Shown here in pieces: positions 775 to 19,082 of a stretch of 64,000 bases of DNA. The stretch comes from a bacterium (GTDB lineage Bacteria > Patescibacteriota > Minisyncoccia > Minisyncoccales > CG1-02-41-26): positions 885-64,884 of the forward strand of contig JAUVXX010000005.1 of the NCBI GenBank assembly GCA_030603395.1. The letters are read 5' to 3'. Within the stretch, counting starts at the first letter, position 1. Every line of letters starts with the position of its first letter. The notes beneath the pieces were generated by a model. The model worked only from the letters and a program-made list of their open reading frames with translations. It searched no databases and was not told where the DNA came from. The translations under genes were made by a program, and so were the position numbers.

Positions 775-2907
775 TTAATTAGGCCAGGTTTCAATCATCA
801 GGCATTTTTTCTTATTTTTCAGAGGCAATTTTTGATAGATTTCCTCGGTCACAAACGGCATAAAGGGATGCAAAAGTTTAAGGGAGGTTAGGAGAACGTA
901 GTATAAAATTTTCTGGGTATTCTCTTTAGTTTTGACATTTGACATTTGGCTTTTGGATTTCTCTATGTACTTGTCGCAAAAATCATGCCAGAAAAAATGA
1001 TATAAAGTTTGGGCTGCCTGACCAAACCTGAAATTTTCCAAATCTTTGTTAACCGATTTAATTGTCTTCTCAAGAACTTTCAATATCTTCTTATCAGCTC
1101 CAGTTAAATTTTTATCAGTTCCAATCAGCTTTTTATCAGTGTTAATCAGCGGCGGTTTATTCATTAGAATAAACCTCGTGGCATTCCAAATCTTATTAGA
1201 AAACTTTCTCTGACCGATTATTTTTTCTTCTGAGATTATAGTATCTTTACCAGAGCCAGTGCCAAAAACCAAAGCCATACGTAAAGCATCTGTTCCGTAA
1301 AGAGTAATTACGCCTAATGGGTCAATGACATTACCTTTTGATTTTGACATTTTTTGTCGGTCTTTATCTCTGACTAAGCCATGCAGATAAACATAACGAA
1401 AAGGTGCTTTTCCGGTACAGTAGATTCCCAACATAATCATCCTGGCCACCCAGAAGAATAGAATATCCCAGCCGGTCTCCATCACACTAGTGGGATAAAA
1501 ATATTGAAAATCTTTAGTTTGTCTGGGCCAGCCAAAAACAGTGAAGGGCCATTGACCAGAAGAGAACCAGGTGTCAAGAGTGTCAGGATCTTGTTTTAAT
1601 TTTTTACCTTTGCATTTTGGACAGGATTTTGGTTTTTCAATATCTACTGTTATTTCTCCACATTCACAATACCAAACAGGTATTCTGTGGCCCCACCAGA
1701 TTTGTCTTGAGATACACCAATCTCTAATGTTTTTCATCCAGTGATAATACAGTTTCTTGTAATGGGTGGGGATAAATTCTATTTTTTTGTCTTCCACTGC
1801 TTTTATGGCAGGAGCTGCTAATTTTTTAGCCCTGATAAACCATTGTTCAGAAATTAATGGTTCAATAATAGTTTTGCATCGTTCACAAATCGCTATACGA
1901 TGTTTGTAATTAAAATCAATTTTTTCCATTAAGCCCATTTTTTCCAAGTCTTTAGCAATTATCTTTCTTGCTTCCCTTACCTTCATTCCAGCATATTTGC
2001 CGGCTTTTTTATTGAGTTTACCGTCAAAGCCAATAACCTGGCGAATTTCTAAGTTGTGCCTTTGTCCAATCTCAAAATCATTAGGGTCATGAGCTGGCGT
2101 TACTTTTACTACTCCTGTTCCGAATTCAGGGTCAACTGCTTTATCAGCAACAACTTTGACTTCAGCTTTGCCTAAAACTGTTTGGATCTCAATTTCTTTT
2201 CCAACATATTTTTTATACCTTTTGTCAGCTGGGTGAACAGCTACTGCTGTGTCGCCAAATTTTGTTTCTGGTCTGACGGTAGCTAAAGTTAAAGGCCCAT
2301 ACTTTATATAATAAAGAGGGTCTTTTTTTTCTTGGTAAATCACCTCTAAATTGGAAAGGGCTGTTTGGCATCTGGGACACCAGCTTATAATTCGTTTGCC
2401 TCGATAAATAAGACCATCTTTATACATTTTTTTAAAGGTGTAAAAGACAGCTTTACTGATTTTTGGATCCAGGGTAAATTTTGAACGACTCCAGTCACAG
2501 CTAGCCCCCAACTTGCGCAACTGGGTTTCCATTACTTTTTTGTTCTCCATTGAAAATTTATAAGTTTGTTTATAAAATTCCTCTCTACCCAACTTCAATC
2601 TTGATTTACCTTGTTTAGCTAACTTTTTTTCGTAAGTCACTTGAGTCATAATGCCGGCATGGTCAGCTCCAGGCAGCCACAAAACTTCTTTCCCTTTCAT
2701 TCTTTGATAACGAGTCATAATATCTTCCAAGGTAACAAAAACAGCATGGCCAATATGTAAAATTCCATTGGCATTTGGCGGGGGCATAATAATGCAAAAA
2801 GGCTGTTTTTTGCTTTTTGGACTTGCTTTTAGAAATCCTGATTTTTCCCAGAGCTGGTAAATTTTATCTTCTACCTGTTTTGGATTGTAAGTTTTAGAAA
2901 TTTTCAT
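775..2907 (-). CDS. valS: valyl-tRNA synthetase, short form lacking the C-terminal coiled-coil
   Basis: 710-aa ORF; PPPNANGILHIGHA (HIGH) and KMSKSKGN (KMSKS) class I motifs; CP1 editing segment TPAHDPNDFEIG; ends ...ETWPN. Confidence 0.9.
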   Translation of the reverse strand: MKISKTYNPKQVEDKIYQLWEKSGFLKASPKSKKQPFCIIMPPPNANGILHIGHAVFVTLEDIMTRYQRMKGKEVLWLPGADHAGIMTQVTYEKKLAKQGKSRLKLGREEFYKQTYKFSMENKKVMETQLRKLGASCDWSRSKFTLDPKISKAVFYTFKKMYKDGLIYRGKRIISWCPRCQTALSNLEVIYQEKKDPLYYIKYGPLTLATVRPETKFGDTAVAVHPADKRYKKYVGKEIEIQTVLGKAEVKVVADKAVDPEFGTGVVKVTPAHDPNDFEIGQRHNLEIRQVIGFDGKLNKKAGKYAGMKVREARKIIAKDLEKMGLMEKIDFNYKHRIAICERCKTIIEPLISEQWFIRAKKLAAPAIKAVEDKKIEFIPTHYKKLYYHWMKNIRDWCISRQIWWGHRIPVWYCECGEITVDIEKPKSCPKCKGKKLKQDPDTLDTWFSSGQWPFTVFGWPRQTKDFQYFYPTSVMETGWDILFFWVARMIMLGIYCTGKAPFRYVYLHGLVRDKDRQKMSKSKGNVIDPLGVITLYGTDALRMALVFGTGSGKDTIISEEKIIGQRKFSNKIWNATRFILMNKPPLINTDKKLIGTDKNLTGADKKILKVLEKTIKSVNKDLENFRFGQAAQTLYHFFWHDFCDKYIEKSKSQMSNVKTKENTQKILYYVLLTSLKLLHPFMPFVTEEIYQKLPLKNKKKCLMIETWPN
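931..947. repeat. tttgacatttgacattt, short relative of the tsaD 31-nt repeat, inside valS
   Basis: direct reading; encodes SQMSNVK on coding strand. Confidence 0.8.
1088..1150. repeat. 3 x 21-nt tandem repeat inside valS (LINTDKK/LIGTDKN/LTGADKK)
   Basis: units 1088-1108, 1109-1129, 1130-1150; units 2 and 3 differ at 3 of 21 nt. Confidence 0.8.
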
Positions 2908-4007
2908 GATATTCTTAAATTAGCCTCAGCTTTGATTTTTTGCCAATTTTTTGAAGCTTCTTTTCTGCGGAAATAAGCTGTTATGCCAATCATGACTGCG
3001 TTGTCGGTGCAGAATTGGATATTAGGTGTTAGATATTGGATATTGGGAATTTCTTTTTTAATTTTTTCTTTGAGTTGTTTTCGCAGTTCATTGTTGGCGG
3101 TCACCCCTCCACCAAGCACTATACTTTTTGCCTTGCAATCCTTGGCTGCTTTGATAGTTTTTTTGATTAAAACATCAATAATCGCCTGCTGGATTTTCTT
3201 GGCCATCTCTCTAACATATTCTTTTGAAGCTCTCACTTTTTTTGACCTCTTTTTAAACTCGTATAGAACAGCAGTTTTGAGTCCAGAAAAAGAGAAATCG
3301 TAATCTTTACTATTTATCATCGGCCGTGGCAACTTTGTTCGATATTTCGCTGTCGCTTCAGGCGACTCCCCGTAGGGTCCTATTTCGACATTTCGACATT
3401 TCGCTGCTGCAGCCGCTATGGCGGGTCCTCCCGGATAGGGGAGGCCCAAAACTCTGGCTGTTTTGTCAAAACATTCTCCGGCTGCGTCATCCCTGGTTTC
3501 ACCAATAATTTTGTATTTACCAATATCATTCATCAAAATCAATTGAGTATGCCCACCACTCACCACCAAGCACACAGCCGGAAAGATTTGACATTTGAGC
3601 TTTGACATTTGACATTTGCCAACAAAGTTGGCAAAGATGTGTGCTTCCATGTGATTAACAGGAATAATCGGCAGGTTCCTTTGTTGAGCTAAATCTTTGG
3701 CAAAATTTATCCCGGTCCATAAACACGGTTCAAGCCCCGGTCCAATCGTTACTGCCACAGCGTCAATTTTCGGTTTCTTAGCTTTATTTAAAGCTTTTTT
3801 AAGCACCACTGGCAGATTCTTTTGGTGTTCTCTTTTAGCCAAACTTGGATAGACCCCTCCGTATTTTTGGTGAATTTTCACTTGCGAGGAAACAACGTTT
3901 GAGAGGATTTCAAATTTAGCATTTTTGACATTTGAGCTTTGACATTTGACATTTAGTATACTTATGCAGGTATCGTCACACGAAGTGTCAATGGCTAAGA
4001 TAATCAT
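2904..4007 (-). CDS. tsaD: tRNA N6-adenosine threonylcarbamoyltransferase TsaD (Kae1/Gcp family) with three in-frame inserts
   Basis: 367-aa ORF; ILAIDTSCDDT, VSGGHTQL, GLPYPGGP, DFSFSGLKTAV family motifs; 4-nt overlap with valS. Confidence 0.9.
   Translation of the reverse strand: MIILAIDTSCDDTCISILNVKCQSSNVKNAKFEILSNVVSSQVKIHQKYGGVYPSLAKREHQKNLPVVLKKALNKAKKPKIDAVAVTIGPGLEPCLWTGINFAKDLAQQRNLPIIPVNHMEAHIFANFVGKCQMSKLKCQIFPAVCLVVSGGHTQLILMNDIGKYKIIGETRDDAAGECFDKTARVLGLPYPGGPAIAAAAAKCRNVEIGPYGESPEATAKYRTKLPRPMINSKDYDFSFSGLKTAVLYEFKKRSKKVRASKEYVREMAKKIQQAIIDVLIKKTIKAAKDCKAKSIVLGGGVTANNELRKQLKEKIKKEIPNIQYLTPNIQFCTDNAVMIGITAYFRRKEASKNWQKIKAEANLRIS
3344..3406. repeat. 9-nt direct repeats (atttcgctg) 54 nt apart, bounding a GC-rich core inside tsaD
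   Basis: atttcgctg at 3344-3352 and 3398-3406. Confidence 0.85.
3587..3617. repeat. 31-nt repeat tttgacatttgagctttgacatttgacattt, copy A (in tsaD)
   Basis: identical to 3924-3954. Confidence 0.95.
3924..3954. repeat. 31-nt repeat tttgacatttgagctttgacatttgacattt, copy B (in tsaD, different frame)
   Basis: identical to 3587-3617. Confidence 0.95.
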
Positions 4008-4013
4008 GTCTTT

Positions 4014-4042
4014 ATTTTACGGGAAATCTTGCCCTTCAGCAA
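4014..4042 (-). promoter_or_regulatory. putative sigma70-type promoter of tsaD-valS, leaderless geometry
   Basis: minus strand TTGCTG (4042-4037), 17 nt, TAAAAT (4019-4014), 6 nt, ATG 4007. Confidence 0.45.
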
Positions 4043-4072
4043 GTTCAGGGCAATACTGAGTCCGTCGAAGTA

Positions 4073-4101
4073 TTGTAATTTTTCAATTTTTGAGTTAGAA
4101 T
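4073..4101 (+). promoter_or_regulatory. putative promoter of tRNA-Glu (and downstream GT2)
   Basis: TTGTAA (4073-4078), 17 nt, TAGAAT (4096-4101), 9 nt before tRNA 5-prime end. Confidence 0.45.
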
Positions 4102-4110
4102 TTATTGAGC

Positions 4111-4183
4111 GGCCCTGTCGTCTAGTGGTTTAGGACGTCGCGCTTTCAATGCGAAAACACGGGTTCGATTCCCGTCAGGGCCA
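4111..4183 (+). tRNA. tRNA-Glu (anticodon UUC)
   Basis: hand-folded cloverleaf: acceptor GGCCCTG/CAGGGCC, anticodon loop CTTTCAA, T arm ACGGG-TTCGATT-CCCGT; no encoded CCA. Confidence 0.9.
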
Positions 4184-4192
4184 CTTTTAAAT

Positions 4193-5743
4193 ATGGAGAA
4201 TTATCTCGAGATTAGTCGGGCTTCCGACCTCCCCAAACTAAGGGAGAGGTGGCTCTATCGTTTTTTTGAAATTTTGCCGGGAGCTCTAAGCTTAACTACC
4301 CTAAGTTTTGCCCTGCTTTTTTCCTGGTTAAAGCCGGTCTGGGTGGCTTTTTTTATTATCCCCCTGTGTCTTTATTGGGCCTTAAAAGTTATCTATCTTT
4401 CTCTGTATCAAGTTACCTGTTTTAGGCGAATGAAAAAAAATCTTAAGGTTGACTGGCAAAAAAAGCTTGAAGATGTTCGCCATTGGCAGAATATTTACCA
4501 ATTAGTTATCCTGCCCATGTACCAGGAGGATTGGGGGGTGGTTAAAGAAACCTTAGAGTCCCTCAAAGATTCAATTTATCCCAAAGACAGAATGATAATA
4601 GTTTTAGCTCAAGAAGAAAGAGCAGGGGAGAAAGTAAGAGAGATTGCCGAAGTTGCTGGCAAAGAATATGGAGATTGTTTTTACCGATTTTTAACCACTT
4701 GCCATCCTAAAGACATTGAAGGGGAAGCCATCGGTAAAGGGTCAAATGTGGCGTTTGCTGGCAAAGAAGCAAAGAAACTAATTGATGAGCTCAAAATCCC
4801 TTATCAAAACGTTATCATTTCAAACTTTGACATTGACACCAAGGTTTCCCCCCAATATTTTCTTTGTTTAACTTATCACTACTTAACCTCAGAAAATCGG
4901 TTAAGGAGCAGCTTCCAGCCCATTCCGGTCTACCACAACAATATCTGGCAAGCCCCGGCTTTCAGCAGGGTTGTGGCTACCAGCAATACTTTCTGGCAAA
5001 TGATGCAGCAGGAAAGACCCGAGCAGGCGGTCACTTACTCTTCCCATTCCATGCCCTTTAAAACTTTTCTGGAGGTGGGTTATCCGCACAATTTAGTGCC
5101 TGACGACTCCCGAATATTCTGGAAATCCTTTTTTAAATATGATGGGGATTACCGAGTTGTCCCCCTATACTATCCGTTGTCTATGGACGTGGTAGACGCT
5201 TCAAGCTTTTTTAAAACTTTTGTCAATCAGTACAAACAACAGAGAAGATGGGCTTGGGGCTGCACCGAAATCCCTTATTTGCTTTTTGGTTTTTTGAAAA
5301 ACAAAAAAATCCCTTTGAGAAAAAGGATTTTCCACTCTTTTATTGCCCTTGAGGGATTTTGGTCTTGGGCTTGTGCCTCTATTTTAATTTTGTTTCTGGG
5401 TTGGCTGCCTTTACTTTTAGGCGGGGAAGAATTTAACGTCACCATACTTGCCTACAACCTTCCCAGATTAACCGGCAGAATTATGACCTTTGCCATGTTT
5501 GGTATGGTTTGCGCCATCATCCTCAACATACTTCATTTACCCCCTCGGCCCAAGGGAATTTCTCCCCTGAAAAACCTTTCCATGATTTTTCAATGGCTGT
5601 TTCTACCCCCGGTTTTAATAATCTTTGGCTCCCTGCCAGCATTAGACGCCCAGGTTCGCTTAATGTTCGGCAAATACATGGAATTTTGGAATACCCCCAA
5701 AGTCCGGAAAAACCTCAAAGAAACAGAGGACAGTCCTCTGTAA
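4193..5743 (+). CDS. membrane-embedded family 2 glycosyltransferase (processive, cellulose/chitin-synthase-like)
   Basis: 516-aa ORF; N- and C-terminal TM segments; central GT-A region; QQRRWAWG (QxxRW) motif. Confidence 0.75.
   Translation: MENYLEISRASDLPKLRERWLYRFFEILPGALSLTTLSFALLFSWLKPVWVAFFIIPLCLYWALKVIYLSLYQVTCFRRMKKNLKVDWQKKLEDVRHWQNIYQLVILPMYQEDWGVVKETLESLKDSIYPKDRMIIVLAQEERAGEKVREIAEVAGKEYGDCFYRFLTTCHPKDIEGEAIGKGSNVAFAGKEAKKLIDELKIPYQNVIISNFDIDTKVSPQYFLCLTYHYLTSENRLRSSFQPIPVYHNNIWQAPAFSRVVATSNTFWQMMQQERPEQAVTYSSHSMPFKTFLEVGYPHNLVPDDSRIFWKSFFKYDGDYRVVPLYYPLSMDVVDASSFFKTFVNQYKQQRRWAWGCTEIPYLLFGFLKNKKIPLRKRIFHSFIALEGFWSWACASILILFLGWLPLLLGGEEFNVTILAYNLPRLTGRIMTFAMFGMVCAIILNILHLPPRPKGISPLKNLSMIFQWLFLPPVLIIFGSLPALDAQVRLMFGKYMEFWNTPKVRKNLKETEDSPL
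5723..5741. terminator. palindromic hairpin between convergent GT2 and recG
   Basis: acagaggac-a-gtcctctgt; overlaps last GT2 codons; same palindrome as 9878-9898 in opposite orientation. Confidence 0.5.
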
Positions 5744-5745
5744 AT

Positions 5746-7902
5746 TTATTCCAGATGGATTCTTTTTTTGAACTTTTTTAATCTCTCTTTCAAAGGGGAG
5801 TATTTTTTTAGGTCGGGGTCCTCGGCTAAAAGTTCTTGGGCTGCCTGTCGGGTTTTTTCAACCAAGGGGAGGTTTTTTAAATTCTCCATAGCCAAATCAG
5901 GAATTCCCCACTGTTTCACTCCCGACAAACTTCCCGGACCCCGGATTTCCAAATCTTTTTGAGCTAATTCAAAGCCATTCTCTGTTTTGACAATTGCCTC
6001 CAATCTTTGGCGAGTTTTTCTGGCAGGAGAGTCGGTGAACAAAAAGCAATAAGATTGCACGTTTGCTCGGCCAACTCTTCCCCGAAATTGATATAGTTGA
6101 GCCAGGCCAAATCTTTCAGCCCCTTCAATCATCATCACGGTGGCTCCCTGAATATCAATACCAACTTCAACCACCGAGGTTGAAACCAAGATGTCAATCT
6201 TTTTATTTTTAAAATCTTTCATTATCTTTTCTTTTTCTTTTGTTTTCATTCTGCCGTGCAGCATTCCTACTTTCAGCTCAGGAAAAATCTCTTTCCGCAA
6301 TTTTTCGTATTCCTCTTTAACCGCTTTTGCTTCAGCCCACCCCAAAATATCTTTCTCTCCTTTTTTGTCTTTCTCAGCTTGATTGTTTCCAGCTTCAATC
6401 CGGGGGCAAATGACAAATACCTGATTGCCAAGTTTTACCTGCTCTTTTATAAAATCGTAAGCTTTATTTCTGTCTTCGGGAGGGATGACCTTGGTAATTA
6501 TTTTTTTCCTTCCCTTGGGCATTTCATCTAAAATTGATAAATCCAAATCCCCATAAACCGTTAAAGCCAAAGTTCGGGGGATAGGAGTGGCGGTCATTGA
6601 TAGCAAATGAGGAATAAGTTTTTCTTCTCCGGCGCGACTCGTGCTAAGTTTAGCTCGCTGCTCCACCCCAAAGCGGTGTTGCTCATCAATAATACAAAGG
6701 GCTAAATTTTTAAACTTCACTTTATCCTGAATTAAAGCATGGGTACCGATCAAGATGTCAATTTCTCCCTTCCTTGCTTTATCCAAAAGTTTTTGTCGAG
6801 AAATTTCCAAAATCTCATTTTCCAGTTTTTGAGCAACAATTTTATCTTCCTTACCGGTCAAGAAAGCAATTTTTACCTTAAAAGGTTTTAACAGTTTTAT
6901 TACCTCTTGAAAGTGCTGTTTGGCTAAAATCTCGGTTGGCGCCATAAAAGCTGTCTGGAAACCTGCCTTAACCACATTTAAGGCAGCTATTACTCCCACC
7001 ACGGTCTTGCCCGAACCAACATCACCTTCCAAGAGGCGCGACATTGGTCTTGGTTTTTCCAGGTCCTTTAAAATCTGCCAGGTGCATTTTTTTTGAGCGT
7101 CCGTCAGTTTAAAAGGTAAAAAGCTGACAAATTCTTTAGTTAACTCAACATTTAAGGGGATGGCCGGAGCTTTTTCTTTATTCAATCTCAATCTTTCTTT
7201 TAAAACCGAAAGCTCAATTAAAAAAAGTTCCTCAAAAGAAAAACGAGCCCTGGCTTTTTCTGCTTGAGCGACTGAATCGGGGAAGTGAACTTGCCAAATC
7301 GCCTGTTTAATTGGTAAGAAGTTTTCAGCTTTAATTATTTTTTCTGGCAGAATCTCCGGGATTTTGTTTTTAAATTCTAAAAGTAGGGGTTTTAAGATAT
7401 AGCGGAGCCAGCGAGAGGACAAACCTTCTGTTTCAGGGTAAACCGGGACAAGCCGTCCAGTATGAGTTAAACTCGATATTTCGATATTTCGAAATGTCGA
7501 TATTTTTTCATAAGCCGGGTTAGACAAGAAAATTCCCTTGTCTCCAAAACTAACTTTGCCAGCCAGACAGACCACATCACCTTGCTTTAAGGTTTTTATC
7601 AGATAGGGTTGATTGAACCAAACAACCTTAATGGCTGATGAGTTGTCTTGAACAATGGCTTGGGTCAAAATCATTCTTCTTTTCCAGGTTCTTGAGCTTT
7701 TAATCTCTAAAATTTTTCCCAAAACACAGCAGGTCTCATTTAATTTAACCTTGGCAATGGGAATGATATCTGAAAAATCCTCATAACGATAAGGAAAATG
7801 CCTGAGTAAGTTCTCCACCGTCTTTATGCCCATTTTTCCAAGTTTCCTCAAAAAACTCGGTCCAACCCTGGAAATTTCTTTAATTGAAGTATCTAAGTCC
7901 AT
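5746..7902 (-). CDS. recG: ATP-dependent DNA helicase RecG
   Basis: 718-aa ORF; GDVGSGKT (Walker A), DEQHRFG (DEQH box), QLRGRVGR-like QFRGRVGR motif VI. Confidence 0.92.
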   Translation of the reverse strand: MDLDTSIKEISRVGPSFLRKLGKMGIKTVENLLRHFPYRYEDFSDIIPIAKVKLNETCCVLGKILEIKSSRTWKRRMILTQAIVQDNSSAIKVVWFNQPYLIKTLKQGDVVCLAGKVSFGDKGIFLSNPAYEKISTFRNIEISSLTHTGRLVPVYPETEGLSSRWLRYILKPLLLEFKNKIPEILPEKIIKAENFLPIKQAIWQVHFPDSVAQAEKARARFSFEELFLIELSVLKERLRLNKEKAPAIPLNVELTKEFVSFLPFKLTDAQKKCTWQILKDLEKPRPMSRLLEGDVGSGKTVVGVIAALNVVKAGFQTAFMAPTEILAKQHFQEVIKLLKPFKVKIAFLTGKEDKIVAQKLENEILEISRQKLLDKARKGEIDILIGTHALIQDKVKFKNLALCIIDEQHRFGVEQRAKLSTSRAGEEKLIPHLLSMTATPIPRTLALTVYGDLDLSILDEMPKGRKKIITKVIPPEDRNKAYDFIKEQVKLGNQVFVICPRIEAGNNQAEKDKKGEKDILGWAEAKAVKEEYEKLRKEIFPELKVGMLHGRMKTKEKEKIMKDFKNKKIDILVSTSVVEVGIDIQGATVMMIEGAERFGLAQLYQFRGRVGRANVQSYCFLFTDSPARKTRQRLEAIVKTENGFELAQKDLEIRGPGSLSGVKQWGIPDLAMENLKNLPLVEKTRQAAQELLAEDPDLKKYSPLKERLKKFKKRIHLE
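7473..7504. repeat. 4 x 8-nt tandem repeat (tcgatatt tcgatatt tcgaaatg tcgatatt) inside recG
   Basis: direct reading; encodes STFRNIEISS. Confidence 0.85.
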
Positions 7903-12080: not shown

Positions 12081-12623
12081 ATGCCAAAAGAACCATTTGC
12101 CAGAATTATTCCCAAACCCAGACCGAAAACACCATTTTCTGTTAGCTTTCTTTTTTACTTTGCCATCTTGCTGGTAATTATTTCAATTGGAGGGTTTTTC
12201 TTTTTGGAAAGCCAGATTTCTTCCCAGAGAGAAAGGAAAGAAGAACTGGAGAGACAAATCGTAGAATTGGAAGGAGAGGAAGAGAAAAAATTAGAAGAAG
12301 AAATTTTATCCTTTGGAGAAAAAATTAAAATTTTCAAGGAGATTTTTGCCAACCATAAAATTAGCTCAAATTTCCTTTCCCTGCTTGAAAGTTCCTGCCA
12401 CCAAAAAGTTCAATTGACCAGCTTAAATTTAGCTACTGAAAATGGTCGGGTTAATTTGCAGGGAAAAACTGAAAGCTTCCAAACCCTGGGGGAACAATTT
12501 CTCATTTTTTCTGAAAATGAGAAATTGGAAAACCTTATTTTATCTAACATCTCTTTGGATAGGGAGGGGAAGATTAACTTTAGCTTAATTTTCTCCCTTC
12601 TCTTGGAGGTTTTAAAGAAATGA
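12081..12623 (+). CDS. PilN-like bitopic pilus alignment protein
   Basis: 180-aa ORF; single N-terminal TM then coiled coil; position after pilM. Confidence 0.55.
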   Translation: MPKEPFARIIPKPRPKTPFSVSFLFYFAILLVIISIGGFFFLESQISSQRERKEELERQIVELEGEEEKKLEEEILSFGEKIKIFKEIFANHKISSNFLSLLESSCHQKVQLTSLNLATENGRVNLQGKTESFQTLGEQFLIFSENEKLENLILSNISLDREGKINFSLIFSLLLEVLKK

Positions 12624-13147
12624 AAAAAAGTTTTAGCATCCCTATTTTATTATTCGTAGTTTTACTTTTGGCGATTTTCCTTGTCTGGCCGCAATACCAG
12701 GAATTTAAAGATTTGAAGGAACAAGTTGACGAAAAACAAGCCGAACTTTCTGAAACTGAAGAATATCTTTCAGAGCTTAGTCAAATTTCAGAAAAGCTAA
12801 ATGATTATCAAGATTCTTTAAAGAAAATTGAGTCGGCTTTGCCTCAGGACTCTTCCTTGCCTTCTCTATTGAATTTCTTTCAGAAAGAAAGTTCAGAAAA
12901 TGGGCTTTTGTTAAAAAATATCAACCAGACAGAAGGAAAAAGAAAAGAAGAGCCAAAAGGAATTTTAGCCAAAGTTAAAGAAACCTACATTAATCTCAGT
13001 CTTACAGGGACCTATCCATCCTTGAAGGGGTTTCTGGAAAGCCTGGAGAAATCCTCAAGATTAATTGAAGTTGAAAATATTTCTATTGATACTGCCGGAG
13101 AAGAATTTCCAGAGTACAACATTTTAATTAAAGTTCATCACATGTAA
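12620..13147 (+). CDS. PilO-like bitopic pilus alignment protein
   Basis: 175-aa ORF; N-terminal TM, coiled coil, C-terminal ferredoxin-like region; operon position. Confidence 0.55.
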   Translation: MKKSFSIPILLFVVLLLAIFLVWPQYQEFKDLKEQVDEKQAELSETEEYLSELSQISEKLNDYQDSLKKIESALPQDSSLPSLLNFFQKESSENGLLLKNINQTEGKRKEEPKGILAKVKETYINLSLTGTYPSLKGFLESLEKSSRLIEVENISIDTAGEEFPEYNILIKVHHM

Positions 13148-13148
13148 C

Positions 13149-13406
13149 ATGCCAGGAATTGCGGAACAAAATAAAACTCTTAAATATTTAATTTGGGGTG
13201 TGGTCTTGGCAGGAATTATTATTCTAATTTACTCCTGGTGGTGGCGTCCCAAGCCTCTTTCTCTTCCTCCTGTTCCCAAACCTTTCCCATCCGTTAAGAT
13301 TGACTTTGAATTTCTGGAGAGCCAGGAAGTCAAAGATATTTTACCCTTTGAGGAGATTTCCCTCCCAGAAGAAGTTGGTCGAGAAAACCCCTTTGAACCC
13401 TACTAA
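13149..13406 (+). CDS. small single-pass, Pro-rich membrane protein, pilus-operon accessory
   Basis: 85-aa ORF; TM LIWGVVLAGIIILIY; operon position only. Confidence 0.4.
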   Translation: MPGIAEQNKTLKYLIWGVVLAGIIILIYSWWWRPKPLSLPPVPKPFPSVKIDFEFLESQEVKDILPFEEISLPEEVGRENPFEPY

Positions 13407-13428
13407 AAATTTATACTCTCCAGTACCT

Positions 13429-15156
13429 ATGGACCTTATTTCTCAATTAGTTAAACAAAGAAAATTAAAGAAAAGAGAGGGAGCTCAGTTGAAGATGGAA
13501 GCCAAGGAAAAAGAAAAGACCCAAGAGGAGTTAATTTTAGAGAAGAAAATTTTATCGGAGAATGCCCTATTTCAACTCAAAAGCAAACTGACCGGAACTC
13601 CTCTGCGAGAAACTCTGCCAGAGAAAATTCCCCCCGAGATTTTAAATATTATCCCCAGAGAGTCAGTGGAATATTATAAAATAGTCCCCCTGCTTTTAAG
13701 AAAAAAAGAAGAGGTTTTGGAGGTAGGCATGGTTTACCCTGATGACCCTAAAGCAGTGGAGGCCTTAAAATTTTTAACCAGGCAGCAAAAGTTACATCCC
13801 AAAATTTTTCTAATCACTTTCTCTAATTTCAGAAAATATCTTGAGCAATTCCGAGCTCCCAAAAAGGAAGTAGAGAAAGCTTTGGAAAGATTGGAAGAAG
13901 AAATCAGACCGGAAGGGGGAAAAGCCATAAAGAAAGCCGAATTTGAGAAATTGGTTGAGGAAGCTCCGGTTATCAAAATGGTAGGGGTTATTTTGCGCCA
14001 AGCTATTGAAGGCAAGGCTTCTGATATTCACATTGAGCCGACCAGGGAGAACGTCAGAGTCAGATACCGCTTAGATGGAATTTTGCACTCCTCCCTTATT
14101 TTGCCCTTAAAGGTTTTGCCAGCCATCGTGGCTCGCATTAAGATTCTAAGCCGGCTTAGAATTGACGAAACCAGAATTCCCCAGGACGGTAGGTTCTCTG
14201 CCAAGATTGGAGAGAAAACCATTGACTTTCGAGTTTCCACTTTTCCCACCACCTTGGGGGAGAAGGTAGCTATTAGAGTTCTTGATCCCACCGAGGGTCT
14301 AAAATCTTTAATTGATTTGGGTTTGAGTGAGAGAAATTTTAAGGTGGTCAAAGAAGCCGTCAAAAAGTCCTACGGCATGATTTTAGCTACCGGTCCCACT
14401 GGCTCCGGAAAAACCACCACCTTGTATTCACTTTTCCAGCTTTTAAACAAAGAAGGAGTGAACATTGTTACTTTGGAAGACCCGGTAGAGTATTTTATTG
14501 ACGGGGTTAACCAATCCCAGATTAGACCAGAAATTGAATATACCTTTGCCAAGGGTTTGCGGCAGATTGTCAGACAAGACCCTGATATTATTATGGTAGG
14601 GGAGGTTCGAGACGAAGAGACGGCCGCCTTAGCCATTCATGCTGCTTTAACCGGCCATTTGCTTTTGTCAACTTTGCACACCACCAATGTCCTTGGGGTT
14701 ATTTCTCGGTTAATTGATATGGGAGTGAAGCCATTTCTTATTCCTCCCACCTTGAGTTTAGCCATAAGCCAGAGATTGGTCCGTGCCCTTTGCCCTTTCT
14801 GTAAAAAGAGAGTGAGGGCTCAGGGAGAAGCAAAAGATTATATCTTAAGCAAACTTAAAAATTTACCAGCCAGTGTAGCTGAGAAAGTCAGGGTTGGCAA
14901 GACCATCTTTATCTATCAACCCCAGGGTTGCAAAAAATGTAATTCCAAGGGATATTCGGGAAGAACCGGAGTTTATGAAGTTATCAAAATGACCGATGCC
15001 TTGGCTGAAATAACCATTCAAAATCCAACTGAAAGTCAGATTCTAAAAGAGGCAAGAGCCCAGGGCATGGTTACCATGGAAGAAGAAGGGGTGTTAAAGG
15101 TTTTAAAAGGCATTACTTCCCTGGAGGAAGTGATGAGGGTTGCGGAAGAAAAGTAA
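13429..15156 (+). CDS. pilB: type IV pilus extension ATPase PilB (GspE family)
   Basis: T2SSE N-domain, Walker A GPTGSGKTTT, Asp/His boxes, tetracysteine CPFC...CKKC; ORF track opens at 13300 but ATG 13429 avoids overlap with upstream ORF. Confidence 0.9.
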   Translation: MDLISQLVKQRKLKKREGAQLKMEAKEKEKTQEELILEKKILSENALFQLKSKLTGTPLRETLPEKIPPEILNIIPRESVEYYKIVPLLLRKKEEVLEVGMVYPDDPKAVEALKFLTRQQKLHPKIFLITFSNFRKYLEQFRAPKKEVEKALERLEEEIRPEGGKAIKKAEFEKLVEEAPVIKMVGVILRQAIEGKASDIHIEPTRENVRVRYRLDGILHSSLILPLKVLPAIVARIKILSRLRIDETRIPQDGRFSAKIGEKTIDFRVSTFPTTLGEKVAIRVLDPTEGLKSLIDLGLSERNFKVVKEAVKKSYGMILATGPTGSGKTTTLYSLFQLLNKEGVNIVTLEDPVEYFIDGVNQSQIRPEIEYTFAKGLRQIVRQDPDIIMVGEVRDEETAALAIHAALTGHLLLSTLHTTNVLGVISRLIDMGVKPFLIPPTLSLAISQRLVRALCPFCKKRVRAQGEAKDYILSKLKNLPASVAEKVRVGKTIFIYQPQGCKKCNSKGYSGRTGVYEVIKMTDALAEITIQNPTESQILKEARAQGMVTMEEEGVLKVLKGITSLEEVMRVAEEK

Positions 15157-15532
15157 TTTTGTGAAACAAATTCTCTTAATTGAAGATGACCCGTTTTTGA
15201 TAGATATTTATAGCCAAAAATTGACCAAAGCCGGATTCAAAGTTGAGGTAGCCAAAAATGGAAAAAGCGCTCTGCAATCTCTCCGAGAGAGAAAGCCCCA
15301 GCTGGTAATCTTAGATATTGTTTTACCGGGGATTGAAGGCTGGGAGATTCTAAGAAAAATCAAAAAAGACCGTAGCTTAACTGGTTTAAAAGTAGTGGTG
15401 CTGAGTAATTTGGGACAGAAAGAGGAGGTGGAGAAAGGATTGAAATTGGGGGCAGTCAAATATTTAATTAAGGCTCACTATACCCCGGGCGAGGTCGTCA
15501 GGGAAATAGAAAAAGTCATAACTAATTCTTAA
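15140..15532 (+). CDS. stand-alone response-regulator receiver domain (CheY-like)
   Basis: 130-aa ORF; IEDD acidic pocket, LDIVLPG phospho-acceptor Asp context, VLSN, KYLIK. Confidence 0.85.
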   Translation: MRKKSNFVKQILLIEDDPFLIDIYSQKLTKAGFKVEVAKNGKSALQSLRERKPQLVILDIVLPGIEGWEILRKIKKDRSLTGLKVVVLSNLGQKEEVEKGLKLGAVKYLIKAHYTPGEVVREIEKVITNS

Positions 15533-15536
15533 ATCA

Positions 15537-16607
15537 ATGAACTATCCAACTCAACTCAAAAGACTTTTGGGGCTGGCTATCAAGAAAGAGGCCTCTGACC
15601 TCCACCTTTCGGTCGGTCACCCGCCAGTTTTGAGAATAATTGGCAACTTGTCTAATGTTGAGGGGGAAGGGGTGATCACTCCCAAAGATTCTCAAGGACT
15701 CGCTCTCAGCTTAATGGTACCTTCGCAGCAAGAAAAATTTTTAAAAGAAAAAGAAATAGATTTTGCTTATGAATTTGAAAAGAAAATCAGGTTCAGGGTA
15801 AATGCCTTTTTTCAGAGGGGATATGTCAGTATTGCTTTAAGGCTTATTCCTTCAAAAATCAAAACTATTGAGGAATTAAAGCTCCCGCCTATTTTACATA
15901 AATTTACCGAAGCTCCCCAGGGATTTGTTTTAATCACCGGAGCTTCCTCTCAGGGAAAATCTACCACTTTGGCTGCCTTAATTGATGAAATAAACCATCA
16001 GCGGAGGGAACATATCATTACTATTGAAGACCCCATTGAGTATGTCTTTCAGGGCGACAAATGTTTAATTGACCAAAGGGAGGTTGGGGTAGATACGCCA
16101 AGTTTTGCCAAAGCCCTGAGGTCCACCTTGCGGGAGGATCCGGATGTCATTATGGTTGGAGAGATGAGGGACCTTGAAACCATCTCAACCGCCATCACCG
16201 CAGCCGAAACCGGTCACCTTGTTTTTGCCACCTTGCATACCAATTCTGCCTCACAAACCATCCATCGAGCCATTGATGTTTTTTCTCCCCACCAACAAAA
16301 TCAGATAAGAGCTCAATTGTCGGGCTCTCTGTTGGGAGTGGTCTCTCAAAGATTGCTGCCTTCAATTAAGAAAGAGTTTGTGCCGGCTTGTGAGATTATG
16401 TTGTCTAATCATGCCGTGGCTAATTTAATTCGGGAGAACAAAATCCATGAGATTCCTTCCGTCATTGAAACTTCAGGGGAGATGGGAATGATTCCCTTCA
16501 ATAAGTCCTTAACCGAATTGGTCAGGAAAAAAGAAATTTCAAGAGAGACCGCCCTGCAATATTCCTTCAGCCCCAAGGATTTAGAAGCCCGACTCGAAAA
16601 AGCATGA
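15537..16607 (+). CDS. pilT: type IV pilus retraction ATPase PilT
   Basis: 356-aa ORF; Walker A GASSQGKSTT, TIEDPIEY, GEMRD, HLVFATLHT motifs. Confidence 0.9.
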   Translation: MNYPTQLKRLLGLAIKKEASDLHLSVGHPPVLRIIGNLSNVEGEGVITPKDSQGLALSLMVPSQQEKFLKEKEIDFAYEFEKKIRFRVNAFFQRGYVSIALRLIPSKIKTIEELKLPPILHKFTEAPQGFVLITGASSQGKSTTLAALIDEINHQRREHIITIEDPIEYVFQGDKCLIDQREVGVDTPSFAKALRSTLREDPDVIMVGEMRDLETISTAITAAETGHLVFATLHTNSASQTIHRAIDVFSPHQQNQIRAQLSGSLLGVVSQRLLPSIKKEFVPACEIMLSNHAVANLIRENKIHEIPSVIETSGEMGMIPFNKSLTELVRKKEISRETALQYSFSPKDLEARLEKA

Positions 16608-17824
16608 AATTTGCCTACAAAGCCAGAACCAAAGAGGGAAGAATTCAGAGAGGAACCATTGAGGCCTCTTCTCGTAAAGTTTGCCTTAGTATCCTGGAAA
16701 AATATGGATTTTACGTAACTTCCTTGCGGGAGGCAGGAAAGGGAGGATTTTTGATGGGAAAGATTTCTCTGCGAAAAACATCCGCCAAAGATATTGTCAG
16801 CTTCAGCCGTCAATTCTCAGTGATGCTAAAATCCGCCATTCCTCCGGTTGAGGCCTTGCGGGCTCAGGTGGCTCAGACGGAAAACCCGGTTTTTCGAGAG
16901 AAAATTTTAAAAATGGCAGAGACAGTGGAGACCGGAAGCACGCTTTCGCAGGCCTTTTCTCTCCATCCAAATATCTTTGACCCTTTTTTTATAAACATAG
17001 TCAAATCTGGAGAGGCGACCGGTAAGGTGGCCGACTCCCTGGATTATTTAGCCAACCATTTAGAATCAGAATACAATCTTTCGCAGAAAATAAGGGGAGC
17101 CATGATTTATCCTGCTTTTGTGATTGTGATTTTTATTGCCGCCTTCTTTTTGGTAACTTTTTTCATTGTTCCCCGATTGACTGAAGTTTTAGAGTCCTTT
17201 GGAGGAAAACTTCCCCTAAGCACAAGGTTGCTAATCCTTCTATCCGACTTTGTCAGGAAAGGCGGTTGGGTTGTTATCCTTGTCGTTTTTGGCTCATTAT
17301 TTTTTATTCCCCAGTATCTCAAGGGGTCTCCGAAGAGTAAAAATTTTTATGATAGAATTTCTCTGAAAATACCAATCCTGGGAGATTTTTATAAGAAAAT
17401 TTATCTTGTTCGCTTTTGTGAAAACCTTTCGGTGTTAATTAGAGCCGGCTTGCCCATAACTCAAGCTCTGAAAATAACCGAAGGAATCATAGGCAGCGAA
17501 GTTTACAAAAAAATTATCATTGAGGCGCAGGAAAGAGTAGCTCGGGGGGAGAAGATAAGTTCTGTCTTCTCGCAATATCCACAATACGTCACCACCTTCA
17601 CCACTCAAATGATTTCAACCGGAGAAGAAACCGGGAAGTTAGAACAAACCCTGATGAACGTGGTTAGTTTTTATCGAGCAGAAATAGAAAGGGCTGCTGA
17701 CAACCTGACCAGTATTTTAGAGCCACTTTTAATTGTGATTTTGGGAATTGGCATAGCCGTAATGGCAGTTTCAATTTTTATCCCTTTATTTCAAATGGGA
17801 ATGGGAGGCTTTGGAGCAATGTGA
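16604..17824 (+). CDS. pilC: type IV pilus platform protein PilC (GspF family)
   Basis: 406-aa ORF; two GspF repeats, three TM segments. Confidence 0.88.
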   Translation: MKFAYKARTKEGRIQRGTIEASSRKVCLSILEKYGFYVTSLREAGKGGFLMGKISLRKTSAKDIVSFSRQFSVMLKSAIPPVEALRAQVAQTENPVFREKILKMAETVETGSTLSQAFSLHPNIFDPFFINIVKSGEATGKVADSLDYLANHLESEYNLSQKIRGAMIYPAFVIVIFIAAFFLVTFFIVPRLTEVLESFGGKLPLSTRLLILLSDFVRKGGWVVILVVFGSLFFIPQYLKGSPKSKNFYDRISLKIPILGDFYKKIYLVRFCENLSVLIRAGLPITQALKITEGIIGSEVYKKIIIEAQERVARGEKISSVFSQYPQYVTTFTTQMISTGEETGKLEQTLMNVVSFYRAEIERAADNLTSILEPLLIVILGIGIAVMAVSIFIPLFQMGMGGFGAM

Positions 17825-17827
17825 AGC

Positions 17828-17908: not shown

Positions 17909-17953
17909 TGTAAGAACTTGTAACGCTCCTTCGTCGCTAACAATTTCTAACAC

Positions 17954-19000: not shown

Positions 19001-19030
19001 TAGTATCACCGAATAAGATTCCAACTTAAA

Positions 19031-19062: not shown

Positions 19063-19082
19063 GTTAGAATGAAAATACGAAT

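What the first reader, a model, noticed from the sequence alone, without database searches (positions are those of the whole stretch)
3344..3406. 54-nt GC-rich insert in tsaD bounded by a perfect 9-nt direct repeat
atttcgctg occurs at 3344-3352 and again at 3398-3406, exactly 54 nt (18 codons) apart. Between the copies lies tcgcttcaggcgactccccgtagggtcctatttcgacatttcgac. It is visibly more GC-rich than the gene and contains a gtcgc/gcgac hairpin and two cgacattt units. The coding strand reads AAK[CRNVEIGPYGESPEATAK]YRTKLPRPM. Removing one repeat plus the core leaves ...AAAAAKYRTKLPRPM, a connector of ordinary length between the GGP and PRPM motifs of the family. A direct-repeat-bounded insertion of 3n length looks like a target-site duplication or a microhomology-mediated insertion fixed in frame.
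Basis: partly seen in the sequence, partly recalled or inferred. Interest (0 to 1): 0.7.

Follow-up and report, generated by a model that had tools for sequence, protein, structure and literature searches.

The report
In-frame mini repeat element in tsaD
The GC-rich patch in this Patescibacteria tsaD gene is one copy of a small repeated DNA element that sits inside short 7/8-base tandem repeats in the surface loops of many essential genes of these tiny-genome bacteria, and is simply translated as a floppy loop.

Summary
In detail: ATTTCGCTG occurs at 3344 and 3398, 54 nt apart, around a 66%-GC core in tsaD (2904-4007, minus strand). The interpretation needs changing. The core is not a one-off insertion. 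CWCCCCGTAGGGTYCTWTTT, with a conserved TTTTTGCTG motif and flanking 7-nt arrays, recurs in at least 8 Patescibacteria/CPR genomes. Hosts are TsaD (three different loops), GyrA, UvrB, MurB, Dcd, PheT, L24, RNase HII and an ftsE-ftsX spacer. It always has the same orientation to transcription and is read in all three frames, so it is a DNA-level repeat, not a protein motif. The 9-nt direct repeat is not a target-site duplication. Six bases come from an interrupted octamer array (AAATGTCG); three (CAG) come from the core's conserved end matching host Ala codons. A filled/empty comparison at another tsaD loop shows no duplication. AlphaFold puts the insert in a low-confidence coil. The closest analogues are Rickettsia palindromic elements and yeast mitochondrial GC clusters. 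I found no prior description. The way it spreads is unresolved.

The parts
2904..4007 (-). tsaD (tRNA t6A37 threonylcarbamoyltransferase), 367 aa, host gene
   Evidence: ORF; 1.2e-70 to T. maritima TsaD 6nak_B; Patescibacteria TsaD homologues
3338..3406 (-). Whole composite insert: an octamer array interrupted by the GC-rich core; encodes K-CRNVEIGPYGESPEATAKYR within TsaD residues about 203-224
   Evidence: matched by the family profile at 3338-3388, E = 7e-9; low-confidence coil in the AlphaFold model
3352..3381 (-). GC-rich core, 30 nt. Coding strand: AGGACCCTACGGGGAGTCGCCTGAAGCGAC. It contains the family signature CTCCCCGTAGGGTCC (+ strand) and a GTCGC-TTCAG-GCGAC hairpin. Boundaries are uncertain by about 2 nt.
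   Evidence: family alignment; genome scan; fold
3382..3403 (-). Octamer array ATTTCGAC x2.8 (coding strand AAATGTCG), on the upstream side of the core in the coding direction
   Evidence: TRF; the only period-8 case among 70 tsaD loops
3338..3351 (-). Remaining array unit(s) on the other side of the core (TTCGATATTTCGCT), including the family-conserved TTT(C)GCTG junction motif
3344..3352 (.). Left copy of the 9-nt direct repeat = array unit + core-terminal CTG (coding strand CAG)
3398..3406 (.). Right copy of the 9-nt direct repeat = array unit + host Ala codons (coding strand GCA GCG)
   Evidence: relatives have GCATCGAAA or GCCGCAAAA at this position
3587..3617 (-). Core-less heptamer array in tsaD loop 2 (KCQMSKLKCQ); a perfect 31-nt copy of the array at 3924-3954, read in a different frame
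   Evidence: D2
3924..3954 (-). Core-less heptamer array (AAATGTC) in tsaD loop 1 (NVKCQSSNVKN). In relative L001 the same array carries a core of this family in its third unit.
7472..7503 (-). Same octamer family, CGA(T/C)ATTT, inside the 718-aa helicase ORF 5746-7902 (recG-like by motif, not checked against Pfam)
   Evidence: 7 matches in the window against 0.7 expected
931..955 (-). Heptamer array TTTGACA x2.6-3.7 inside valS
   Evidence: the orthologous ORF in L001 carries tRNA-synt_1 and Anticodon_1

Best explanation
The insert is one copy of a small dispersed repeat family of Patescibacteria (CPR). A GC-rich core of 25-31 nt has these features on the non-coding strand: it starts with CTG, carries a short variable hairpin segment, and ends with GAC(T/A)CCCCGTAGGGTCC followed by a T-run. 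The core lies nested inside a short tandem array of A/T-rich 7-nt units, here 8-nt units. In the window, a 4-unit octamer array (AAATGTCG) filling the variable TsaD connector between YPGGP and PRPM is interrupted in its third unit by a 30-nt core. SHOWN: the family exists, is dispersed over unrelated housekeeping genes, keeps one orientation to transcription, and is read in three frames. SHOWN: it preserves the frame in every copy. SHOWN: the bracketing direct repeat is array sequence. SHOWN: the insert lies in a low-confidence coil of the model. INFERRED: the element has no function for TsaD. It is translated as a disordered surface loop and persists because it is harmless there. Only in-frame, stop-free copies survive. 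The opposite orientation would place TGA or TAA from the T-rich repeats into the frame. INFERRED, about 45%: new copies arise by copy-paste between arrays that share the same unit, through short-homology recombination, gene conversion or template switching. RecA is present, and a perfect 31-nt array segment has been copied between two tsaD loops. INFERRED, about 30%: alternatively a trans-acting enzyme that leaves no target duplication (HUH/Y1 type, as for IS200/IS605 or REP elements) moves the core into TTTG-containing arrays. The arrays themselves grow and shrink by polymerase slippage.
For: (1) A scan of 185,579 species genomes with CWCCCCGTAGGGTYCTWTTT gave 11 hits, 9 of them in CPR MAGs. 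My own estimate is about 9 chance hits overall and about 0.1 in CPR, which I take to be roughly 1% of the bases. All 9 also share motifs that were not in the pattern, namely TTTTTGCTG and flanking 7-nt arrays. Three more copies are in tsaD of the window, L001 and L044, at three different loops. A 13th, diverged copy is in L086. (2) The hosts are confirmed by Pfam: UvrB, GyrA C-terminal domain (orthologous in two genomes), Dcd, MurB, PheT, L24 and RNase HII, plus the ftsE-ftsX spacer. (3) Three frames are used: KGPYGES, KKDPTGCP and KRTLRGG. (4) All 12 copies have the A-rich strand as the transcribed sense strand. (5) Copies within one genome share core subtype and array unit. (6) The filled/empty pair at tsaD site 1 shows the core replacing 3 nt of one unit (net +27 nt), with 5 units in L001, the window and P0004 alike, so there is no TSD. 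(7) Direct repeats of 8-14 nt bracket the core in 9 of 12 copies, mostly with spacing that is not 3n. (8) Removing the 30-nt core leaves 21 aa, which is the median of 70 relatives. (9) AlphaFold2 gives pLDDT of about 50-66 and coil at residues 203-221, and also at the two other repeat patches. (10) Period-7 arrays are 19-fold enriched in 775 kb of CPR DNA, against 3-6-fold for periods 6 and 9. 131 arrays against 34 have the A-rich strand as the coding strand. (11) RecA is encoded at 34134-35132.
Against: Only one copy of the core lies in the 64-kb window, so proliferation in this particular genome is not shown. No insert-minus allele of this tsaD is on record; the nearest protein is 83% identical. 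Copy numbers seen per genome are low (1-3 with a strict 20-nt pattern). The mechanism of spread is not demonstrated: no transposase was found among 30 small ORFs of the window, and none could be looked for genome-wide. The octamer flank is unique to the window's copy. The 17-nt identity of the core to the 3' end of tRNA-Glu of relatives is not explained by this model. Conservation of the orthologous GyrA insertion in two genomes shows that copies can be old and inherited vertically, so 'mobile' may overstate current activity.
Confidence: 0.72

Rival explanations
1. One-off insertion with a 9-nt target-site duplication, or a microhomology-mediated insertion, fixed in frame. The 45-nt core plus one repeat is the inserted unit.
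For: There is a perfect 9-nt repeat, 15 nt with one mismatch, exactly 54 nt apart. The core is unique in the window.
Against: The left repeat copy overlaps a motif conserved in all family members. The repeat is made of octamer array units that also occur in the ORF at 5746-7902. Other copies have longer bracketing repeats at spacings that are not 3n. A filled/empty pair at tsaD site 1 shows no duplication. Excising 54 nt gives a 13-aa loop, shorter than all 70 relatives. No relative has the predicted empty site.
Confidence: 0.07
2. A fragment of the neighbouring tRNA-Glu gene (T-loop, T-stem and acceptor 3' strand, plus trailer) was copied into tsaD by a local templated event. The family as a whole derives from a tRNA-Glu 3' end.
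For: The window + strand CGACTCCCCGTAGGGTC is identical over 17 nt to the 3' end of tRNA-Glu(UUC) of relative L034, and over 15 nt to that of L001 and L047. The orientation is the same as the tRNA gene, which lies about 750 nt away and divergent from tsaD in most relatives. A T-run follows in both. My estimate of a chance 16-17-mer match within the 0.72 Mb examined is about 1e-3.
Against: The window's own tRNA-Glu (4111-4184) reads CGATTCCCGTCAGGGCC and cannot be the template. CR_Bin_021 has the element in gyrA (L093), but its tRNA-Glu (L003) lacks the motif. Copies lie in unlinked genes. The rest of the element shows no tRNA similarity, and no T-arm can form.
Confidence: 0.12
3. The insert is a functional nucleic-acid signal, for example a hairpin plus T-run that terminates antisense transcription through tsaD, or an mRNA hairpin that modulates translation or decay. 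It would be kept by selection rather than being selfish.
For: On the non-coding strand most copies read as a GC hairpin followed by TTTTT. One copy sits between ftsE and ftsX. At the same tsaD loop, relatives maintain a perfect palindrome through compensatory changes.
Against: The terminator scan finds nothing in 2800-4300. Fold energies of the window, L001 and L044 inserts are not better than shuffles, with z from -0.4 to -1.1. The minimal cores give z of -0.55, -2.2, +0.4, -1.3 and -0.2, and no common structure. The window's T-run is interrupted (TATTTCG). The host genes share no functional theme.
Confidence: 0.08
4. A protein-level adaptation: the GPYGES-containing loop is a selected peptide module, such as an interaction or regulatory motif of TsaD.
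For: The same GPYG peptide appears in L001 TsaD (another loop) and in MurB of L086.
Against: The same DNA is read as KKDPTGCP or KRTLRGG in other genes. The position differs between TsaD orthologues. The region has low pLDDT and is coil. The closest relatives lack it.
Confidence: 0.03

Closest known systems
Rickettsia palindromic elements (RPEs; Ogata et al. 2000, as summarised in PMC10969869)
   Same: Repeated selfish-looking DNA inserted in frame into many unrelated housekeeping genes of a reduced genome. The insertion is tolerated because it lands at positions compatible with the protein fold.
   Different: RPEs are about 150 bp and palindromic, and each family encodes one conserved peptide, so one frame is used. 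The present element is about 25-31 nt of core (45-70 nt with arrays), is not a long palindrome, is read in all three frames, is nested in 7/8-nt tandem arrays, and occurs in Patescibacteria. There is no sequence similarity.
Mobile GC clusters of yeast mitochondrial DNA (M1-M4, G and V classes; PMC4464245)
   Same: GC-rich elements of 30-80 bp dispersed in an AT-rich compact genome. They fall into sequence classes, show lineage-specific expansions, occasionally sit in frame inside a protein gene (rps3/VAR1), and are associated with recombination.
   Different: They are organellar and eukaryotic, mostly intergenic and palindromic. They are not embedded in heptamer arrays. The present family is found almost only inside coding genes.
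Over-represented heptameric simple sequence repeats of bacteria (cyanobacterial and Xanthomonas heptamers; PMC4692102)
   Same: Tandem 7-nt units are strongly over-represented relative to other periods. They vary in length between close relatives and are attributed to polymerase slippage.
   Different: Those repeats are G-rich and mainly intergenic. Here they are A-rich on the coding strand, lie inside essential genes (131 against 34 strand bias), and serve as the bed for a GC-rich core.
REP/REPIN and IS200/IS605-derived palindrome-associated elements moved by HUH (Y1) transposases (from my own knowledge)
   Same: Very short, hairpin-containing and strand-specific, with no target-site duplication. 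A GTAG tetranucleotide is present in the core.
   Different: Those elements are extragenic and usually present in tens to hundreds of copies next to a RAYT or TnpA gene. No such gene was seen in the window, and location inside genes is the rule here.
Borg tandem repeats that create disordered regions in proteins (bioRxiv 10.1101/2022.05.18.492195)
   Same: A-rich tandem repeats arise rapidly inside ORFs and add disordered segments.
   Different: In Borgs all intragenic repeat units are divisible by three. Here the units are 7 or 8 nt, and only the total length keeps the frame.

Membership tests
CPR array-nested GC-core element (family defined here) | Core signature C(T/A)CCCCGTAGGGT(C/T)C followed by a T-rich tail on the non-coding strand | tested here: met
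   Window 3364-3385 matches; 12 copies align; profile hit E = 7e-9
CPR array-nested GC-core element (family defined here) | Conserved TTT(T/C)GCTG junction 6-17 nt upstream of the signature | tested here: met
   Window ATTTCGCTG at 3344-3352; TTTTTGCTG in L086, L091, L092 and L094; ATTTGCTG in L001
CPR array-nested GC-core element (family defined here) | The same short tandem unit on both sides of the core | tested here: met
   The window has the octamer CGA(C/T)ATTT on both sides; the other copies have heptamers. The 8-nt unit is a variant.
CPR array-nested GC-core element (family defined here) | Inside an ORF, frame preserved, A-rich strand = sense strand | tested here: met
Rickettsia palindromic elements | About 100-150 bp palindromic element encoding a conserved peptide in one frame | tested here: not met
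   Core 30 nt; no long palindrome; three frames used
Rickettsia palindromic elements | In-frame insertion into unrelated housekeeping genes | tested here: met
MITE | Terminal inverted repeats | tested here: not met
   The flanks are direct repeats, not inverted. The repeat finder reports no inverted pair bracketing 3338-3406. The family alignment shows the ends CTG... and ...GGGTCC.
MITE | Target-site duplication on insertion | tested here: not met
   Filled (L001) and empty (window, P0004) alleles of tsaD site 1 have equal unit numbers. This rests on one pair only.
MITE | A related autonomous IS in the genome | not testable with these tools
   Only 64 kb of the genome is available; none was found among 30 small ORFs
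REP/REPIN (RAYT-mobilised) | Extragenic location | tested here: not met
   11 of 12 copies lie inside ORFs
REP/REPIN (RAYT-mobilised) | Imperfect palindrome preceded by GTAG; RAYT gene present | tested here: inconclusive
   GTAG is present in the core, but the hairpins are weak. No Y1 transposase was found in the window, and the rest of the genome is unseen.
Phase-variable contingency locus (SSR-mediated) | Non-3n repeat unit in a gene whose on/off switching is tolerated, typically surface or restriction genes | tested here: not met
   The unit is 7 or 8 nt, but the hosts are essential single-copy genes: tsaD, valS, gyrA, L24
Translational bypass elements derived from GC clusters ('byps') | Indifference to frame and stop codons, because the ribosome skips the insert | tested here: not met
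   Every copy keeps the frame and is free of stops, with Pfam domains on both sides
tRNA-derived fragment | Sequence identity to a tRNA of the same genome | tested here: not met
   17 of 17 nt match tRNA-Glu of relative L034, but the window's own tRNA-Glu differs. Other tRNA genes of this genome are unseen.

The most novel reading that the evidence does not exclude
Patescibacteria harbour a previously undescribed kind of mobile mini-element. It is a 25-31-nt GC core, perhaps descended from the 3' end of tRNA-Glu, that specifically colonises heptamer microsatellite arrays inside essential genes without duplicating its target. Together with the arrays and the self-maintaining perfect palindromes found in the same loops, it would form a lineage-wide DNA-level system. 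That system would continuously remodel the surface loops of housekeeping proteins in these reduced genomes.
Probability: 0.3. Interest if true: 0.75.

Novelty: new variant of a known kind. Interest (0 to 1): 0.6.

Why it matters
It shows that much of the 'extra' sequence in Patescibacteria housekeeping proteins is written by DNA-level processes (7-nt slippage arrays, perfect palindromes and a dispersed GC core), not by selection on the protein. This has several consequences:
- **Annotation and alignment.** Loops such as KCQMSKLKCQ, NFQFSIFNFQ, KKDPTGCP or xRGQxSx are repeat translations. They should be masked in CPR alignments and phylogenies and treated with care in structure prediction. The NCBI protein for this very gene is only 312 of 367 aa.
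- **Essential genes tolerate risky repeats.** These genes carry non-3n microsatellites that could frameshift them.
- **Markers.** The elements offer fast-evolving presence/absence markers for strain tracking in metagenomes.
- **A second bacterial example.** After Rickettsia, this is another system of selfish DNA living inside protein-coding genes. It is far smaller and is read in all frames, which makes its mechanism of spread an open and testable question.

Tried and rejected
- **16S rRNA idea.** The core's CCCTACGGGG resembles the 16S '340F' region from memory. I dropped this: the window has no rRNA, and the family and tRNA-Glu matches explain the motif better.
- **Second copy in the window.** Exact and 2-3-mismatch searches and an nhmmer profile found none.
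- **RNA/DNA structure.** Fold z-scores are insignificant, and subfamilies share no common structure.
- **Antisense terminator.** The terminator scan was negative.
- **Breadth of the family by protein search.** A synthetic three-frame peptide returned only ribosomal protein L24.
- **Viral contigs.** No copy.
- **Transposase in the window.** Pfam on 30 ORFs of about 100-330 aa found no Y1, DDE or serine/tyrosine recombinase. It found a type IV pilus cluster, RecA, SSB and others.
- **Literature.** Five searches combining Patescibacteria/CPR terms with tandem, heptamer, in-frame or palindromic terms found no description of this phenomenon.
- **54-nt tandem duplication.** Rejected, because the two halves share only the 9-15-nt ends.
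- **Assembly artefact.** Rejected, because independent assemblies from different studies carry the family and all ORFs stay intact.
Full report
**1. The observation**

The sequence is as described. ATTTCGCTG occurs at 3344-3352 and 3398-3406. The 45 nt between the copies are exactly as quoted and are unique in the window. The repeat extends to 15 nt with one mismatch (D6). ATTTCGAC is tandemly repeated 2.8 times at 3382-3403. The region lies in a 367-aa minus-strand ORF (2904-4007). That ORF is TsaD: E = 1e-70 to T. maritima TsaD, which shows a gap exactly here. Its closest homologues are Patescibacteria TsaDs. By itself the 9-mer repeat is only weakly beyond chance: 3 copies against 0.6 expected, and a repeat of at least 9 nt in this geometry occurs at 4% of random positions.

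**2. The gene has three such patches, and relatives differ at all of them**

A perfect 31-nt repeat, TTTGACATTTGAGCTTTGACATTTGACATTT, lies at 3587-3617 and 3924-3954. It is read in two different frames (KCQMSKLKCQ and NVKCQSSNVKN), and both copies align to gaps in T. maritima TsaD.

I aligned tsaD DNA of three close relatives whose flanks are about 85% identical: L001/P0003, L002/P0002 and L003/P0004.
- At loops 1 and 2 they carry no repeat (P0002) or arrays of other heptamers (AATTTTC, AAATCTC, AAATGTC).
- At the finding's loop they carry perfect palindromes, AACAGAGGAC-A-GTCCTCTGTT in P0003 and GACAGAGGAC-A-GTCCTCTGTC in P0002, or AAAAATG-type heptamers in P0004.
- None has an empty site with a single ATTTCGCTG.

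**3. Census of the loop**

I extracted the connector between YPGGx and PRPM from 82 loci, giving 70 distinct sequences.
- It is 15-45 aa long, with a median of 21. The window's is 31.
- 24% contain a period-7 array of at least 15 nt, against 2.5% of background windows from the same loci.
- 17% contain a perfect palindrome with a stem of at least 10 bp (up to 21 bp), against 0.8% of background.
- The window's loop is the only period-8 case.

Across 775 kb of these CPR loci, period-7 tandem runs are 19-fold over a Markov expectation (193 against 10). The 'in-frame' periods 6 and 9 are only 3- and 6-fold over. The arrays lie mostly in long ORFs, with the A-rich strand as the coding strand in 131 cases against 34. 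The loci are not de-replicated and all surround tsaD, so these ratios are indicative only.

**4. The core is a dispersed element**

The motif GGACCCTACGGGG recurs at tsaD loop 1 of L001, where it interrupts the AAATGTC array. A one-mismatch version recurs at a third tsaD loop of L044, between AATTCAA repeats.

I scanned one genome per species (185,579 species) with CWCCCCGTAGGGTYCTWTTT. The pattern covers what the three copies share and excludes genuine tRNA ends. It gave 11 hits.
- Nine are in Patescibacteria/CPR MAGs, and three of those MAGs have two copies on different contigs.
- The two non-CPR hits lack every other family feature and are what chance predicts.

The nine CPR hits share features that were not in the search pattern. 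These are a TTTTTGCTG junction, a variable segment of 6-17 nt that often forms a small hairpin, and the same heptamer repeated on both sides. A profile built from the 12 copies finds a 13th, diverged copy in L086 and no second copy in the window.

The hosts are UvrB, GyrA C-terminal domain (an orthologous insertion in two genomes), Dcd, MurB (two copies), PheT, ribosomal protein L24 and the C-terminus of RNase HII (L24 also). One further copy lies in the 57-nt ftsE-ftsX spacer.

The coding strand always reads AAAAAGGACCCTACGGGG. It is translated in all three frames as KGPYGES, KKDPTGCP/S or KRTLRGG/V. This rules out a protein-level module and shows a DNA-level repeat.

Copies within one genome share both core subtype and flanking unit:

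| Genome | Core subtype | Flanking unit |
|---|---|---|
| binchicken_co247_5 | GCTGTCRWAGACTCCCC | TTTTGAT |
| CR_Bin_039 | GCTGGAGCCTTT(T)G(G)CTCCTCCCC | TTTTGAT |
| CSMAG_2716 and CR_Bin_021 | CTGCCCYRCTGGACACCCC | TTTTAAT |

This is the pattern expected from intragenomic copying or concerted evolution.

**5. What the direct repeat is**

Direct repeats of 8-14 nt bracket the core in 9 of 12 copies. They consist of array units, for example CTTTTTGATTTTTG in L094. Their spacings are 38, 41, 44, 45, 48 and 58 nt, mostly not multiples of 3.

The best filled/empty comparison is tsaD loop 1:
- P0004 reads (AAATGTC)x4.
- The window reads AAATGTC AAATGTC AAAGCTC AAATGTC.
- L001 reads AAATGTC AAATGTC AAA[30 nt core]C AAATGTC.

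The unit number is the same in all three, and the core replaces 3 nt within one unit (net +27). So there is no target-site duplication.

Read the same way, the window's loop is GCA GCG | AAATGTCG AAATGTCG AAAT[core]CG AAATATCG | AAC AAA G. That is a 4-unit octamer array interrupted in unit 3 by about 30 nt (3352-3381). The 54-nt period is 3 x 8 + 30. Of the 9 repeated bases, CGAAAT is the array period. CAG is the conserved end of the core on one side (…CAG|C AAA in L001, L086, L094, L085 and L089) and the host's Ala codons GCA GCG on the other. Relatives have GCATCGAAA or GCCGCAAAA at that position.

Removing the 30-nt core leaves AIAAAAAKCRNVEIAKYRTKL, 21 aa, which is the family median. The same octamer family occurs in the helicase ORF at 7472-7503, so it is a genome-specific unit type.

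**6. Consequence for the protein**

An AlphaFold2 model built on 32 homologues has mean pLDDT 84.3 and pTM 0.84. It shows confident structure everywhere except the three repeat patches (blocks 21-30, 131-140 and 201-220; residues 206-209 are below 50) and the C-terminal tail. The insert is coil following helix 193-202. It is therefore most likely translated as a disordered surface loop.

All copies keep the frame and are free of stops, with Pfam domains on both sides. This argues against ribosomal bypassing or splicing.

The uniform orientation has a simple explanation. In the opposite orientation the flanking units TTTTGAT, TTTTAAT, TTTGACA and TTTTGAA would bring TGA or TAA into frame within three units, and the core contains TAG in one frame. 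This follows directly from the sequences. The ftsE-ftsX copy has the same orientation although no frame is at stake, so a strand-specific insertion process or avoidance of a sense-strand hairpin plus U-run may also contribute.

**7. Mechanism of spread (inferred)**

Two routes fit the data.

(a) Copy-paste between arrays of the same unit, by short-homology recombination, gene conversion or template switching.
- The core always has the same array on both sides.
- Arrays are abundant.
- A 31-nt array segment including its variant unit has demonstrably been copied between two loops of this tsaD.
- Subtypes are homogeneous within genomes.
- RecA is encoded in the window.
- No duplication accompanies insertion.

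(b) Mobilisation by an enzyme that leaves no duplication, of the HUH/Y1 type.
- The element has conserved ends, small hairpins near both ends, a GTAG, and strand specificity.
- No such gene is present among 30 small ORFs of the window, though only about 64 kb of the genome is visible.

I rate (a) at about 45% and (b) at about 30%. The arrays themselves are best explained by polymerase slippage. Over-representation of heptameric repeats in bacteria and this explanation for it are in the literature, although for intergenic G-rich repeats (PMC4692102).

**8. An unexplained link to tRNA-Glu**

On the + strand the core reads CGACTCCCCGTAGGGTC. This is identical over 17 nt to the T-loop, T-stem and acceptor 3' end of tRNA-Glu(UUC) of relative L034, and over 15 nt to that of L001 and L047. 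The tRNA gene lies just upstream of tsaD, divergently transcribed, so the core and the tRNA are in the same orientation. In both, a T-run follows.

Against a direct link:
- The window's own tRNA-Glu (4111-4184) differs at this stretch.
- CR_Bin_021 has the element (L093), but its tRNA-Glu (L003) lacks the motif.
- Copies lie in unlinked genes.

At most this marks the ancestry of the family. I could not test it further.

**9. Comparison with known systems**

- **Rickettsia palindromic elements** work most like this: selfish repeats inserted in frame in housekeeping genes. They are five times longer, palindromic, and read in one frame.
- **Yeast mitochondrial GC clusters** are the closest in size and setting: 30-80 bp, GC-rich in an AT-rich genome, falling into classes with lineage-specific expansion, and occasionally in frame in VAR1. 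They are organellar and mostly intergenic.
- **Borg tandem repeats** also add disordered segments, but only with 3n units.
- **MITE, REP/REPIN, contingency-locus and bypass-element** memberships each fail at least one defining feature that was tested (see the membership table).

Five literature searches found no description of this element or of heptamer arrays in CPR genes. The library lacks most subscription-journal papers, so a prior description cannot be excluded.

**10. Verdict**

It is wrong on the nature of the direct repeat, on the size of the inserted unit, and on uniqueness.
- The feature is a new variant of a known kind: selfish or neutral repeated DNA living inside protein-coding genes. 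Its distinctive features are very small size, use of all three frames, nesting in non-3n microsatellites, and no target duplication.
- Interest is 0.6. A specialist in CPR genomics or mobile DNA would find the family, and the general 'repeat-written loops', worth following up. However, the element probably does nothing for TsaD, and its mobility is not yet shown in this genome.

Noticed in passing
window 3587-3617 and 3924-3954: A perfect 31-nt direct repeat (heptamer array with one variant unit, GAGCTTT) lies in two different loops of tsaD, 337 nt apart. It is read in two different frames (KCQMSKLKCQ and NVKCQSSNVKN). This implies recent copying of an array segment between loops.
   Followed up: partly
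L001:2415-2439, L002:620-642, L006, L017, L061, L070 (tsaD loop orthologous to window 3338-3406): Relatives keep a perfect palindrome, N..GAGGNC-A-GNCCTC..N, encoding xRGQxSx. Six of 13 pairs change on both sides, and the covariation score is 0.405 against 0.149 in shuffles (0 of 500 reach it). Either a hairpin is selected inside the coding sequence, or quasi-palindromes are corrected by templating. The sequences were chosen because they are palindromic, so the test is biased.
   Followed up: partly
L019:3168-3209, L020, L048:6683-6720, L077, L079, L082, L041 (tsaD loop): Much longer perfect palindromes (14-21-bp stems, GC-rich) fill the same loop in other Patescibacteria. They give mirror-like peptides such as EVRPPRARGGLTS.
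   Followed up: no
L054:1420-1554 and L078:4401-4508: The same tsaD loop holds a different repeat whose translation (AVIPxL..NP....DSRFRGNDISL, hairpin ATTCCCGC-TTTC-GCGGGAAT) looks, from memory, like a peptide seen in many spurious metagenomic ORFs. It is probably another dispersed hairpin family.
   Followed up: no
window 4111-4184 (+) and L034:5862-5935, L001:1630-1702: tRNA-Glu(UUC) lies divergent from tsaD in most relatives. The 3' end of the tRNA in L034, L001 and L047 is identical over 15-17 nt to the element's core, but the window's own tRNA-Glu is not.
   Followed up: partly
window 3014-3046: ATTGGAT x4.7 near the 3' end of tsaD encodes IPNIQYLTPNIQF. The same peptide is conserved in many relatives (P0002, P0008, P0016, P0023, P0032, P0042, P0059). 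So a heptamer-written segment can become a stable part of the protein.
   Followed up: no
window 931-955 and 7472-7503: Heptamer TTTGACA in valS, and octamer CGA(T/C)ATTT (partly in inverted arrangement) in the 718-aa helicase ORF 5746-7902. These are the same unit families as in tsaD, within 7 kb.
   Followed up: partly
window 19340-19562: Three patches of TTTTCAA/AATTTTC heptamers lie inside the prepilin peptidase gene (19083-19892), in the linker between its two Pfam domains. Here the T-rich strand is the coding strand.
   Followed up: no
window 23585-23613: A perfect AAGTTTC x4.1 array near the 3' end of the 675-aa ORF 21800-23827. The host gene was not identified.
   Followed up: no
window 35596-35649, 46266-46304, 62157-62215: Other tandem repeats: a 9-nt unit x6 in the C-terminal tail of SSB, a 10-nt unit x4 (AGACGCTGAT) inside ORF 46087-47415, and a 9-nt unit x6.6 inside ORF 62136-63413.
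   Followed up: no
window 2904-4007 / P0001: The protein on record for this gene (NCBI source, 69.5-kb contig) is only 312 aa, 85% of the 367-aa ORF. The deposited gene call apparently starts downstream of the first repeat patch, so repeat-written loops may be disturbing start-site calling.
   Followed up: no
window 12620-21441: A type IV pilus cluster (PilO, prepilin peptidase, at least five N_methyl pilin-like ORFs), with RecA at 34134-35132 and SSB and S6 at 35480-36408. This is ordinary CPR gene content and was noted only while looking for transposases.
   Followed up: no
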